From assembly GCA_039961735.1 (NCBI GenBank), contig JABRVX010000044.1, positions 3,212 through 67,211 of the forward strand: DNA of 64,000 nucleotides, written 5' to 3'. The stretch's first letter is position 1. Each line of letters starts with the position of its first letter. The notes beneath the pieces were generated by a model. It worked only from the letters and a program-made list of their open reading frames with translations. It was not told the DNA's origin and ran no database searches. This stretch comes from Fimbriimonadia bacterium. Lineage in GTDB: Bacteria; Armatimonadota; Fimbriimonadia; Fimbriimonadales; JABRVX01. The position numbers and the translations under genes are program-made. Positions 4,042 to 7,096 of the stretch are shown piece by piece.

Positions 4042-5382
4042 TTACGCCTTCCGACGTAGCATCAGCGGCAGGAGGCAGGTGCCGAGCAGCAGCAGACAAC
4101 TCGGCTCCGGGATAGGCGTGGACAGGTAGATCCACTTCATGTCGCCCTCGGATGTGATCCAGAGCACGTGACCGTTCTCACCGACTGCCATGCCTACGGC
4201 GTAGTGGTCCGGTCCCAGCAGGTCAGCGGAGAGGTCGAAGCCGTTCACGAAGACATGCGCTCGGTGGTTGGTCAGCTCACCGGATCCCCACCATACCGCA
4301 TTCCCGAAGCGGTCAATTCCAACGCCGATCTGCTCATCCATGCTGTTCATCTTGCCTAGCAGCGCCGTTGACAGGTCTTCATGATTCCGGAAAGTCACGA
4401 GTCCGCGGACGGCGCCGCTGCCTTGCCACAGTACGTCACCGGTTGCGCTTACGAACGTATCGGTCTGTATGACGCCATAGGGCTCATCGCCAAACACCGG
4501 AGTCGAGTAGTCCTCGTAGTTCCGCATGAGGCGCGTCACGCTCGGCGATTCGTCGAACATGTACCACCAAAACGTACCATCCTCCTGAAGGGCCTCGGCG
4601 TGGGCCCCGCGGATGCGAGGGTACCGACTAAGCGTCAAGTTCTCACTGTTCAAGAACAGGCATCCCACCCCACCGGTCGCTTCCCCATAGCCGGACCACA
4701 GCACGTTGCCTGCCGCGTCGAGTCTCACTCCACCCAACACACGCCTGTTGGCACCAAGTATCGGCGCAGAGTAGTTCACATCGTTGATGAACATCTCCTT
4801 GTAACGCGCTCCTTGGTCATCCGTCAGCCAGCCGTGCCACGCTGCGACTCCCGCCGCATTCATGTCTTGTAGCGTAACACTAGTCACCGCACGCCCGCGC
4901 GACAGCTCGTCCGTCCCGAGGAACACACGGTCCGGTTGACCGCTGTCACGCCGGAGCCACAGTGGCCGCCCGTCCGCGGTAACAAAGCGCGAGTGATCTT
5001 GGGTCGGCCGGCTCGGGGGGAACAACTCCCTGTAGAAGTCGCGATCCTCTACCATCACGTGCAGCGACCGCTGGGGCTCTGCGTCTAGTGCCCGCCACGA
5101 AACCTGATCGGAAGCGTTGATCGCCGAAACGAGACCCTGAGCCAACGGACCGAAGTAGTGCCTGTTCAGGTTGGTCTTGTACTTCCATGCCTGGTTGCCG
5201 TACCCGTACTCCACAGTGCTGTAGATGGGAACGCCGTTCGGGCTGACGCCGTGATACGTTGGGCTGGAGATCGCCACCCAGAAGTAATCTCCCGCCAGGA
5301 GAAGCTCATGCTTCCACTGCGTCTGTGCCAGTGCGAATGAACACCACGCGAGGACTAGGATGACTGTAAGGATTGATCTCAT
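4042..5382 (-). CDS. PEP-CTERM secreted protein with repeated propeller-like blades
   Basis: Signal peptide; C-terminal PIPEPSCLLLLGTCLLPLMLRRKA; about eight repeats of the form x-x-x-G-x-V-x-W. Confidence 0.85.
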   Translation of the reverse strand: MRSILTVILVLAWCSFALAQTQWKHELLLAGDYFWVAISSPTYHGVSPNGVPIYSTVEYGYGNQAWKYKTNLNRHYFGPLAQGLVSAINASDQVSWRALDAEPQRSLHVMVEDRDFYRELFPPSRPTQDHSRFVTADGRPLWLRRDSGQPDRVFLGTDELSRGRAVTSVTLQDMNAAGVAAWHGWLTDDQGARYKEMFINDVNYSAPILGANRRVLGGVRLDAAGNVLWSGYGEATGGVGCLFLNSENLTLSRYPRIRGAHAEALQEDGTFWWYMFDESPSVTRLMRNYEDYSTPVFGDEPYGVIQTDTFVSATGDVLWQGSGAVRGLVTFRNHEDLSTALLGKMNSMDEQIGVGIDRFGNAVWWGSGELTNHRAHVFVNGFDLSADLLGPDHYAVGMAVGENGHVLWITSEGDMKWIYLSTPIPEPSCLLLLGTCLLPLMLRRKA

Positions 5383-5439
5383 CGGATCTGCCTTTCCAAA
5401 ACGCGGGGAGGCCGCTAAGTGTGGCCCTCCCCTGTAACA

Positions 5440-6944
5440 CTACTTCCCCCAACGGGCGATTACGTACCCGTCGGAGGTAGTGAACACGACGGCGCCATCG
5501 TAGTCAATCGCAAGGTCTTGGCGCGGGATGGTCTTACCCAGGTTGATGGGGAACCCGTAGGGGATCGTGCTCCCTGCGGGCTCCATAACGTAGTACTTGC
5601 CGTTCGTGGTGATCACGTACAGCCAGTTGGTCTCGCCGTTCTTCCGCCAGATGGCGGGCGCGGAGGTGATCTCGTCAGCGTCCCCACCCATCTTGACGCG
5701 GACATACCCCTGGGCCTTGCTCTCGCCGGGGTTCAGGTCGAGGACGCGCACCAAGGTCGGCTTGCCGTTGCCGGACGCGGTGTCCAGCGTGCCTTGGTAC
5801 AGGTTGGCATTGTCGGCCATGTCGTTGCACATGTTCGCAACCAGCTTGCCGATGTCATAGTTCTGCGGGGGATACACCATAGTCGTGCGCATCTGGTCCA
5901 CGCGCCCGTTCGGGTTGTCCTCCCACCGGTTGTTGGAGTCTGGATCGACCGAGTAGATTCGGCCCTTGTAGTTGCCGGCGTTGTACGTCGCGAAGTACAC
6001 ACGTGTGGCGCTCGCGAGCATCGCCCAGCTTTTGCACTCCTGGGTCTCCGATTCGTCGCGCCAGCGCCAGTGTCTGACTACTGTCGAACCCTCATCTTCC
6101 CACAACTCCAGCCGCGCGTTCTCGGTAGTCACGTACAGGTACGCCTCATCCTCGGCCTGAGGTCCCGGCTCGGAAAGACTGAAGGCCACCGCAGGCGTGC
6201 TCACGACAGGCCCGCTCGTCTCGGCATCCCACTTGTAGTCCTGGTTGGCAGGGGTGCCCGAGTAGTACCTGTAGAACCCGTAGACATGGCCCGCGGAGGA
6301 GCCAACGTAGATGCTGGCGCCACCGTGAGCCGGAGCCGTGAGGGTCTCGCCCTGGCCCGTAAGATCCGCCGAGCGCCAGATGCGGTCACCCGTCTCGGCG
6401 TCAATACAGTGCAGACGGCCGGATGTGTCGCTGACGTAAACAGCGCGCGCCGGTGTGTTGCCCGTCGTGACGAGCAAGGGTGTGCCGATGGGGTCGCCGT
6501 CACAGGTGTAGGTCCACACGGGGTCGTCGTCCACCGTGAACACCATTGGTGCGGCGATGCCGCCCGAGTTCACGCGGTAGCAGTAGACCTTCCCGTCGTC
6601 TGCCCCCACGAAGAACTCGTAACCGTAGTCGTCGTCGGACGGCTCCGCTGGGGGTTCCACGGGTATCTCGCTCAGGAAGAGACCGATGGCCACGCCGCCC
6701 GTTGCGACGGCACCGTTAGGGAGCGCCTTGCTCCACTTCTGCGTGCCGGCGACGTAGTTATCGTACTGCCCAGTACCCTCGGACAGCCTTACGAGCCCCT
6801 GCGGGTAGTAGCCGGAGTGAGAATAGTCCTTGCCGCCCATGGGCCATTGTCCCCAAAGGTCGGCGCTAACGGGGGTCAGGAGGAGGGCTGCCCCCCCCCC
6901 CATAGAGTAAGCAAGGCCGCAATCCGAGATTGCATCTCTGCCAT
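5440..6944 (-). CDS. PQQ/BamB-like beta-propeller secreted protein; signal peptide out of frame at a G11 tract
   Basis: Blade motifs (TPLLV, TAPAHGG, VSTPAV, ITSAPAI; YCY/LHCID/YGFY). ATG 6944 frame stops at 6878-6876 unless the G11 tract changes length. Alternative start is ATG 6903. Confidence 0.75.
6891..6901 (-). repeat. G11 homopolymer tract (C11 on plus strand)
   Basis: Eleven consecutive C at 6891-6901, counted directly. Confidence 0.95.
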
Positions 6945-7096
6945 TCACCTTCCAGTTAGGGATGGTCGGTCCGGCCCGGCGGCCGTCCGGCCCCGGTCGG
7001 ACCGTCAGCAATACAGACGTGCATAGGATACACCAAAGTTCGCCGTCCGCAACCTGCTGCCCGACTCTTCTCCACAAGCATGGACTGTTAGCATGG

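What the first reader, a model, noticed from the sequence alone, without database searches (positions are those of the whole stretch)
6876..6944. G11 tract puts a signal peptide out of frame: candidate phase-variable surface protein
Seen: from ATG 6944 (GGAAGG upstream) the frame reads MAEMQSRIAALLTLW-GGG-QPSS-stop. With G9 or G12 in place of G11 it reads MAEMQSRIAALLTLWGG(G)AALLLTPVSA|DLWGQW..., a well-formed signal peptide fused to the ~500-aa propeller. Established: poly-G slippage drives phase variation in contingency genes. Inference: the gene is in the OFF state. The downstream PEP-CTERM gene could be affected if the two are co-transcribed.
Basis: partly seen in the sequence, partly recalled or inferred. 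Interest (0 to 1): 0.75.

Follow-up and report, generated by a model that had tools for sequence, protein, structure and literature searches.

The report
Poly-G switch in secreted propeller gene
A run of 11 G's inside the export-signal code of a secreted beta-propeller gene in an uncultivated wastewater bacterium (Fimbriimonadales) really does break the reading frame, and the run has a different length (9 to 12 G's) in near-identical strains from other samples. It therefore most likely works as the slippage-driven on/off switch known from pathogens, seen here in a new phylum and a new protein family.

Summary
A G11 tract lies on the minus strand at 6891-6901 and is the longest homopolymer in the 3.2-Mb genome. 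It separates the start codon and first half of a signal peptide (MQSRIAALLTLW) from the second half (AALLLTPVSA|D) and a 466-aa PQQ-like 8-bladed beta-propeller.

G11 is not an assembly error:
- Independent re-assemblies, a JGI contig and an RNA contig all carry it.
- A control G9 tract and the G8 tracts in housekeeping genes are stable and in frame.

Orthologues carry the intact leader with G5, G6 or G9. On near-identical flanks the tract reads G9, G10, G11, G12 or G12+A in different studies. Only G9 and G12 are in frame.

At least five other secreted-protein genes in this genome carry G/C8-9 tracts at the same place in their leaders, and four of them are out of frame. The mature protein is under purifying selection (dN/dS 0.13), yet it sits as a 17%-divergent allele between identical flanks.

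Best reading: a slipped-strand contingency locus of the PilC design, OFF in this genome. The switching rate, reversibility and any effect on the downstream PEP-CTERM gene are untested. Two sister lineages carry extra inactivating mutations, so gene decay remains a real rival. I file it as a new member of a known kind.

The parts
7016..7042 (-). Conserved upstream motif GAACTTT-N16-CGTCT. It may be a promoter of the ECF-sigma type (low confidence).
   Evidence: The motif is conserved in C44, paralogue C57, G001 and the P0002 allele. The strict motif occurs at only these two loci in the genome. No sigma-70 consensus promoter was found. That it resembles ECF promoters is my own recollection and was not tested.
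6984..6998 (-). 5' ends of the metatranscriptome contigs, marking the approximate 5' boundary of the transcript
   Evidence: RNA contigs end at 6994 (X10), 6998 (X24) and 6984 (X27).
6946..6953 (-). Shine-Dalgarno-like GGAAGGTG
   Evidence: Read directly. It is conserved in all alleles and paralogues aligned. It lies 10-12 nt before ATG 6935.
6933..6935 (-). Conserved start codon ATG (MQSR...)
   Evidence: This is the only ATG conserved in G001, C57 and L017, and it is the called start of the intact protein P0002.
6876..6935 (-). Truncated 19-codon reading frame made in the G11 (OFF) state: MQSRIAALLTLWGGGQPSS, then TGA
   Evidence: Translation.
6891..6901 (-). G11 homopolymer, the length-variable switch. 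Lengths of 6, 9 or 12 are in frame.
   Evidence: The length varies between samples.
6862..6891 (-). Second half of the signal peptide (AALLLTPVSA). Cleavage is predicted after VSA, between 6862 and 6861.
   Evidence: The -3/-1 rule (V, A) and the hydrophobic core were checked heuristically. The segment is conserved in the orthologues.
5440..6861 (-). Mature PQQ-like 8-bladed beta-propeller (about 473 aa) plus its stop codon
   Evidence: Pfam PQQ_2 scores 40.5 bits against a cut-off of 27.6. The AF2 model has pLDDT 78 and pTM 0.84. The best PDB folds are YxaL and BamB. dN/dS is 0.13 against the P0002 allele.
4042..5382 (-). Downstream partner gene: a 446-aa secreted protein with a PEP-CTERM-type tail (PIPEPSCLLLLGTCLLPLMLRRKA). 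It starts 57 nt after the propeller stop.
   Evidence: NCBIfam PEP-CTERM hits are weak and confined to the tail. A paralogue of this gene follows every propeller paralogue. An exosortase is present in the genome.

Best explanation
The G11 run is a slippage-prone homopolymer inside the signal-peptide code of a secreted PQQ-like beta-propeller gene in a Fimbriimonadales (Armatimonadota) bacterium from wastewater and anammox reactors. Gain or loss of single G's, by slipped-strand mispairing at replication, changes the reading frame. Tract lengths that are multiples of three (G6, G9, G12) join the start codon ATG 6935 and the first half of the leader (MQSRIAALLTLW) to the second half (AALLLTPVSA|D) and the propeller, so an exportable protein is made. 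Every other length makes translation stop after 19 codons at TGA 6878-6876. This genome carries G11 and is OFF. The gene is still transcribed. The locus belongs to a small family of leader-tract genes in this genome, so the organism probably varies its secreted and surface proteins stochastically. Shown here: the anatomy of the site; the intact leader in orthologues; tract-length polymorphism on near-identical backgrounds; a stable control tract; the same design in paralogues; purifying selection on the mature protein; and transcription. Inferred: the slippage mechanism, a high and reversible switching rate, actual export, and any selective benefit.
For: - Anatomy.
- Orthologues carry an in-frame leader with a shorter tract: G001 with G6, the G002 orthologue with G5, and P0002 with G9 starting at MQSR.
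- Tract length on (near-)identical flanks, DNA: G11 in X1, X2, the own MAG and the JGI contig L027 (0 differences in 1.9 kb). G12+A in four runs of study P3 and in an NCBI MAG (10 differences in 1.9 kb). G10 in X20. G9 in four runs of study P6 and in a JGI contig.
- Tract length, RNA: G12 (X10) and G11 (X24) in one study, and G9 (X27).
- Low-depth assemblies break exactly at the tract (X3, X7, X19).
- Controls: a G9 tract elsewhere (C10:35819) is identical and assembled through in X4, X8 and X3. G8 tracts in the housekeeping-type genes I examined (about five) are in frame.
- Family pattern: C57 (G9), C39 (G8), C4:143272 (G8), C5:84065 (G8) and C19 (C9) carry tracts at the same place in their leaders, and four of these five are out of frame. 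Relatives show the same with C8 (G001) and G7 (G002). That makes 6 of 26 G/C tracts of 8 or more in leader code, with a binomial probability of about 1e-4 to 1e-7 depending on the assumed leader fraction.
- Frame A is the conserved coding frame upstream of the tract: changes between paralogues are synonymous there, and frame C has a stop in C57.
- The own ORF is intact over 478 codons and dN/dS is 0.13.
- The design matches Neisseria pilC, which has a poly-G tract in its signal-peptide code and switches at 1e-2 to 1e-4 (PMC2193922). G11 exceeds the poly-G/C threshold of 9 or more used for phasome calls (PMC5953494).
Against: - Only assembled contigs were available, not raw reads. Heterogeneity within a single population was therefore not measured, and neither was the switching rate or reversibility.
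- All three DNA populations that carry this exact propeller allele are OFF (G11, G12+A, G10). The in-frame G12 is seen only in one low-depth RNA contig.
- The G12+A allele contains a non-slippage change (an inserted A).
- The G9 tract of paralogue C57 is identical, and OFF, in two studies.
- Sister lineages carry extra lesions: a TGG>TAG nonsense mutation with G7, and a 1-nt deletion in G001. The gene is therefore dispensable and sometimes decays.
- MutS and MutL are present, so there is no mutator background.
- The X20 call of G10 rests on depth 2.
Confidence: 0.7

Rival explanations
1. Gene decay. The frameshift is one step in irreversible loss of a dispensable gene, not a maintained switch. 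The tract-length differences would then be neutral drift in a dying leader.
For: - The L017/L018/X15/X31 lineage has G7 (out of frame) plus a TGG>TAG nonsense codon at 6734.
- The G001 orthologue has a 1-nt deletion near 6382.
- All DNA populations with this allele are OFF.
- The OFF state of paralogue C57 is fixed in two studies.
- Paralogue C6 has an internal TGA and lacks the leader.
Against: - The own ORF is intact over 478 codons. dN/dS is 0.13 at dS 0.67.
- In-frame alleles G9 and G12 exist with a 100% identical leader.
- The tract has expanded from G5-G7 in relatives to G9-G12 here, and the same design recurs in at least five other leaders. Random decay does not predict that.
- The gene is transcribed.
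Confidence: 0.17
2. Recoding. The G11 template is expressed anyway, because RNA polymerase slips on the G run (or the ribosome shifts by -1). Part of the transcripts or translations would then be in frame, and the tract would set a dose rather than an on/off state.
For: Two RNA contigs from the same metatranscriptome study carry G12 (X10) and G11 (X24) on otherwise identical sequence. Four of the five OFF leaders in this genome need +1 nt.
Against: - No DNA from the same samples is available, so DNA heterogeneity explains the RNA result equally well.
- C57 and the G12+A allele need -1, so no single shift direction serves all loci.
- Four of five needing +1 is not significant.
- Orthologues are simply in frame.
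Confidence: 0.07
3. Assembly or sequencing error. The true tract would be G12 or G9, and the gene would be intact in this organism.
For: Long G homopolymers are error-prone on Illumina chemistry, and several low-depth assemblies break at the tract.
Against: - G11 is reproduced by two Logan re-assemblies at depth 13-18, by a JGI assembly, and by an RNA contig from an unrelated study.
- The control G9 tract assembles identically in three runs.
- The G8 tracts examined in housekeeping-type genes are in frame.
Confidence: 0.05

Closest known systems
Neisseria gonorrhoeae / N. meningitidis pilC1/pilC2 (poly-G tract in the signal-peptide coding region; Jonsson et al. 1991, as cited in PMC2193922; tract G9-20 in PMC5953494)
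   Same: In both, a poly-G run inside the leader-peptide code sets the frame of an exported protein, and +/-1 slippage gives ON or OFF. Both organisms have paralogous copies and keep their mismatch repair genes.
   Different: The protein is unrelated: there is no PilC/PilY1 Pfam hit and the fold is a YxaL/BamB-like PQQ propeller. The host is a free-living or biofilm Armatimonadota bacterium rather than a host-restricted pathogen. The switching rate has not been measured. The gene is paired with a PEP-CTERM gene instead of pilus genes.
Neisseria opa family and Mycoplasma vlp/vsp-type families (repeat in or near a conserved leader, with variable mature parts)
   Same: Both are multi-copy families in which the promoter, 5'UTR and leader are far better conserved than the mature protein. 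Here the leader is 77-100% identical in nucleotides while the proteins are 36-86% identical. Each copy has its own slippery tract, and recombination produces mosaic alleles.
   Different: The repeat is a homopolymer rather than a CTCTT pentamer. There are only about six copies. No evidence exists for surface exposure or for antigenic pressure.
Poly-G/C contingency loci of Campylobacter jejuni, Haemophilus influenzae and Helicobacter pylori
   Same: Both involve intragenic G/C tracts of 8 or more in surface-related genes, with tract-length polymorphism between near-identical strains.
   Different: Campylobacter and Helicobacter lack MutS/MutL-type repair, whereas this genome has both. This genome holds far fewer tracts: 26 G/C runs of 8 or more in 3.2 Mb at 62% GC.
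YxaL (Bacillus velezensis) and BamB: secreted or periplasmic 8-bladed PQQ-like beta-propellers
   Same: The predicted fold matches (Foldseek E 1e-12 to 1e-13, TM 0.70-0.74 normalised on the target). The protein has a Pfam PQQ_2 hit and an N-terminal signal peptide.
   Different: Sequence identity is only 12-17%. The protein falls far below the BamB equivalog cut-off (31.7 against 285 bits). It is about 100 aa larger because of insertions. Its function is unknown.

Membership tests
Slipped-strand (simple-sequence-repeat) phase-variable contingency locus | A repeat tract at or above the length empirically linked to phase variation (poly-G/C of 9 or more in PhasomeIt; PMC5953494) | tested here: met
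   G11 at 6891-6901. It is the longest homopolymer in the genome.
Slipped-strand (simple-sequence-repeat) phase-variable contingency locus | The tract is placed so that a change in length switches expression (inside the ORF or in the promoter) | tested here: met
   The tract lies between codon 12 of the leader and the rest of the signal peptide. Only lengths divisible by 3 are in frame.
Slipped-strand (simple-sequence-repeat) phase-variable contingency locus | Tract length is polymorphic among otherwise near-identical strains or samples | tested here: met
   G9, G10, G11, G12 and G12+A occur on identical or near-identical flanks in different studies. The control G9 tract is invariant.
Slipped-strand (simple-sequence-repeat) phase-variable contingency locus | Mixed tract lengths within one clonal population, with high-frequency reversible switching | not testable with these tools
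   All runs were available only as assembled contigs. The one hint is G11 and G12 in two RNA samples of one study.
Slipped-strand (simple-sequence-repeat) phase-variable contingency locus | The product is a surface or secreted molecule | tested here: inconclusive
   The restored leader has a positive n-region, a hydrophobic core and V-x-A before the cleavage site (heuristic check; SignalP was not available). The fold is like secreted YxaL and periplasmic BamB. Export itself has not been shown.
PilC/PilY1 family | Homology to the PilC/PilY1 C-terminal propeller domain | tested here: not met
   The Pfam scan lists only PQQ_2 and Beta-prop_ACSF4. The PDB fold hits are YxaL and BamB, not PilY1.
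BamB (outer membrane protein assembly factor) | A score above the equivalog cut-off (TIGR03300) | tested here: not met
   31.7 bits against a cut-off of 285.2. Only the fold class is shared.
PQQ-like repeat beta-propeller (Pfam PQQ_2) | A Pfam gathering-score hit and a propeller fold | tested here: met
   PQQ_2 scores 40.5 bits against a cut-off of 27.6. The AF2 model is an all-beta propeller with pTM 0.84.
PEP-CTERM/exosortase substrate (downstream gene 5382-4042) | A C-terminal PEP motif, a transmembrane helix and a basic cluster, with an exosortase in the genome | tested here: inconclusive
   The tail PIPEPSCLLLLGTCLLPLMLRRKA fits the motif by eye. NCBIfam PEP-CTERM models hit only the tail, at E 0.01-0.05 and below their cut-offs. 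An exosortase EpsH homologue is present (167 bits).

The most novel reading that the evidence does not exclude
The locus may be one unit of a combinatorial surface-variation system (a small 'phasome') in a free-living Fimbriimonadales bacterium. On this reading, several two-gene cassettes (a secreted PQQ-like propeller plus a PEP-CTERM partner) and other secreted-protein genes each carry their own poly-G/C gate inside the leader code. They share a conserved promoter, 5'UTR and leader cassette. Their mature-coding parts are swapped by recombination: the propeller allele differs by 17% in nucleotides between flanks that are 100% identical. The population would then hold many ON/OFF and allelic combinations, plausibly under pressure from phages or grazers in reactor biofilms. 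This would be an opa/vlp-like strategy outside host-associated pathogens.
Probability: 0.3. Interest if true: 0.65.

Novelty: new member of a known kind. Interest (0 to 1): 0.45.

Why it matters
Homopolymer-driven phase variation is textbook biology for host-adapted pathogens, but it is hardly documented for uncultivated environmental phyla. This case shows a PilC-style switch in Armatimonadota from engineered wastewater ecosystems, with several sister switches in the same genome and a recombining, hypervariable target gene.

It has two consequences. First, apparent "frameshifted pseudogenes" at G/C runs in MAGs can be real OFF alleles, which matters for annotation. Second, stochastic surface variation may be a general strategy in dense, phage-rich biofilm communities.

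The many public time-series metagenomes of anammox and sludge reactors that contain this organism make the hypothesis directly testable by counting reads.

Tried and rejected
- **Uniform recoding.** I asked whether all OFF leaders need the same shift, which would suggest programmed frameshifting or a systematic undercount. C44, C39, C4:143272 and C5:84065 need +1, but C57 and the G12+A allele need -1. I rejected it as a uniform rule.
- **ATG 6903 as the real start.** It would give MGGGAALLLTPVSA. There is no SD before it, the product has no charged n-region, and the ATG is absent in C57 and G001. Rejected.
- **Frame C start (TTG) for the 13-nt allele.** Frame C holds a TGA in C57. Rejected as a conserved frame.
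- **Promoter.** The sigma-70 scan found nothing. The conserved GAACTTT-N16-CGTCT motif occurs only at C44 and C57, so it is not a regulon signal.
- **Within-study variation in P3.** Read laying described X4-6 and X8 differently, but the contigs themselves are the same G12+A allele. I withdrew the apparent variation.
- **Paralogue C57.** Its G9 tract shows no variation between studies P1 and P3.
- **JGI metagenome pattern scan.** It returned only the contig already known.
- **Other searches.** The PDB sequence search found nothing. The protein search found only three related clusters. The literature search for phase variation in Fimbriimonadales returned 0 papers.
- **Mutator background.** MutS and MutL are both present.

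Full report
**1. Observation.** On the minus strand the window reads ...GGAAGGTGAATGGCAGAGATGCAATCTCGGATTGCGGCCTTGCTTACTCTATG(G)10CAGCCCTCCTCCTGACC....
- The G run is 11 long (6901-6891). It is the only G/C run of 9 or more in the window and the longest homopolymer in the 3.2-Mb, 62% GC, 77-contig genome.
- From ATG 6944 the frame gives MAEMQSRIAALLTLWGGGQPSS*.
- The long frame gives MGGGAALLLTPVSADLWGQWPMGG... for 487 aa.
- The description is exact. By composition alone about 0.2 runs of 11 or more are expected in this genome, so the tract is notable for its place, not for its mere existence.

**2. What the gene is.**
- The long frame hits Pfam PQQ_2 above the cut-off.
- An AlphaFold2 model built on eight family members (pLDDT 78, pTM 0.84) is an all-beta propeller.
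- Its best PDB matches are designed 8-bladed propellers, the secreted Bacillus protein YxaL, and BamB. It is far below the BamB equivalog score, and no PDB entry matches by sequence.
- The next gene starts 57 nt downstream (5382-4042). It encodes a signal-peptide protein ending PIPEPSCLLLLGTCLLPLMLRRKA, a PEP-CTERM-type tail. The genome has an exosortase.
- The same-genus relative is titled "Fimbriimonadales bacterium AMX-MBFR-61". The runs that hold the sequence are sludge, biofilm and anammox-type bioreactor metagenomes.

**3. The true N-terminus.** Three relatives carry an intact leader:
- the same-genus orthologue (G6): MQSRIAALLSLWGATLLLTPVSA|DLWGLWPMGG;
- the sister-genus orthologue (G5): MVRLIALLMIGGAMASSSSFA|QLWGTWPMGG;
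- a metagenomic protein, P0002 (G9): MQSRIAALLTLWGGAALLLTPVSA|GLWGQWPMGG.

The frame upstream of the tract is therefore real coding sequence. Between paralogues C44 and C57 the changes in that frame include two synonymous ones. The other two frames take only replacements or a stop. ATG 6944 is not conserved, so the start is ATG 6935. The restored leader has a positive n-region, a hydrophobic core and V-S-A before the cleavage site (heuristic check).

**4. Is G11 real?** Yes.
- Two Logan re-assemblies (X1, X2; depth 13-18) and a JGI contig with no differences over 1.9 kb carry G11.
- An RNA contig from another study (X24) also carries G11.
- A control G9 tract elsewhere in the genome is assembled through and is identical in three runs from two other studies.
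- The G8 tracts examined in housekeeping-type genes (coaX, cheA and UDG-like genes, among others) are in frame.

**5. The tract is unstable.** The table lists the tract on identical or near-identical flanks.

| Tract | Where seen | Frame |
|---|---|---|
| G11 | study P1, own MAG, JGI contig; RNA X24 | OFF |
| G12+A | all four runs of study P3 and an NCBI MAG | OFF |
| G10 | study P4 (depth 2) | OFF |
| G12 | RNA contig X10, same study as X24 | ON |
| G9 | four runs of study P6, a JGI contig, RNA X27 | ON |
| G7 | more distant lineage | OFF |
| G6 | G001 | ON |

Low-depth assemblies break exactly at the tract. Read laying worded the P3 allele in two ways, but the contigs show it is one allele.

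**6. Family context.** Six genes in this genome share the N-terminal WPMxGxDxxHTG motif.
- C57 (G9) and C39 (G8) are out of frame at a leader tract.
- C19 has an in-frame C9 tract.
- Contig C46 ends exactly at the tract position.
- Two unrelated secreted-protein genes (C4:143272 and C5:84065) also have G8 tracts that split a leader.
- Relatives show C8 (OFF) and G7 (ON) at the same place.
- In total, 6 of the 26 G/C tracts of 8 or more lie in leader code, with P about 1e-4 to 1e-7 depending on the assumed leader fraction.
- C44 and C57 share 77% nucleotide identity over promoter, 5'UTR and leader, although the proteins are only about 30-36% identical.
- Every propeller paralogue is followed by a paralogue of the PEP-CTERM gene.

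**7. Selection and mosaicism.** I compared this genome with the G9 allele (L014).
- The 5'UTR and leader (7008-6909) and the body of the PEP-CTERM gene (5311-4112) are 100% identical.
- The propeller between them is only 69-90% identical, with dS 0.67 and dN/dS 0.13.
- The protein is therefore functional over evolutionary time, and whole alleles are exchanged by recombination.

Against this, one sister lineage combines G7 with a TGG>TAG nonsense codon, and G001 has a 1-nt deletion. The gene is dispensable and sometimes decays.

**8. Mechanism and rivals.**
- **Best reading (0.70): a slipped-strand contingency switch of the pilC design, OFF here.** Poly-G in the PilC signal-peptide code switches at 1e-2 to 1e-4 (PMC2193922), and G9 or longer is the usual threshold (PMC5953494). 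MutS and MutL are present, as they are in Neisseria.
- **Rivals:** irreversible decay (0.17), recoding by transcriptional or ribosomal slippage (0.07), and assembly error (0.05).

What is missing is read-level heterogeneity within one population and a measured switching rate. Only contigs were available.

**9. Novelty.** A search of the held literature for phase variation in Fimbriimonadales found nothing. Earlier notes of this scan report the same design in other uncultivated phyla. Those are leads, not evidence, but they suggest the habit is widespread. I file this as a new member of a known kind, of moderate interest.

Noticed in passing
window 5312-6830 compared with L014: The propeller gene is a mosaic island. 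It is 69-90% identical in nucleotides to the allele in SRR28719891. The leader and 5'UTR (7008-6909) and the PEP-CTERM gene body (5311-4112) are 100% identical. The break points fall just after the signal peptide and about 70 nt into the PEP-CTERM gene.
   Followed up: partly
L024:373-380 (G000:C4:143272-143279, minus strand): A G8 tract splits another signal peptide, MKHVFVTLITGWGG | GVGLIFLPALASA|QE, in an unrelated 250-aa secreted protein. It has the same 'TGG GGG GG' design and needs +1.
   Followed up: partly
G000:C5:84065-84072 (minus strand, near the contig end): A G8 tract lies between MAELSGG and GTALVGLLLPSSLWG..., at the start of a 754-aa protein with a dockerin-like tail. It is probably another out-of-frame leader tract.
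   Followed up: no
L012:3060-3068 (G000:C57:12559-12567) and G000:C39:333-340, C19:2844-2852, C46 contig end: Paralogous propeller genes carry G9 (OFF), G8 (OFF) and C9 (ON) tracts in their leaders. Contig C46 stops exactly where the tract would be.
   Followed up: partly
L013, about window 6382 equivalent: The same-genus orthologue (Fimbriimonadales AMX-MBFR-61) has an in-frame leader (G6). It also has a 1-nt deletion outside any homopolymer that splits the propeller at residue 174/175. This is either a pseudogene or an assembly error.
   Followed up: partly
window 6734 (L017, L018, X15, X31): A sister lineage has TGG>TAG (W to stop) in the propeller together with a G7 out-of-frame tract, and it is still represented in an RNA run.
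   Followed up: partly
window 7016-7042, minus strand: The motif GAACTTT-N16-CGTCT is conserved upstream of C44, C57 and the G001 copies. From memory it resembles ECF-sigma promoters. RNA contigs begin 20-30 nt downstream of it.
   Followed up: partly
L012:3383-3429: A short stretch (about 45 nt) upstream of the C57 cassette is repeated on many contigs: depth jumps from 14 to 83 in X4, with many loose ends. This is probably a dispersed repeat element.
   Followed up: no
versus 68/70: read laying wrote one and the same G12+A contig allele in two ways: 'CC put in + C>T' and 'TC put in'. Indel wording at homopolymers should be checked against the contig itself.
   Followed up: yes
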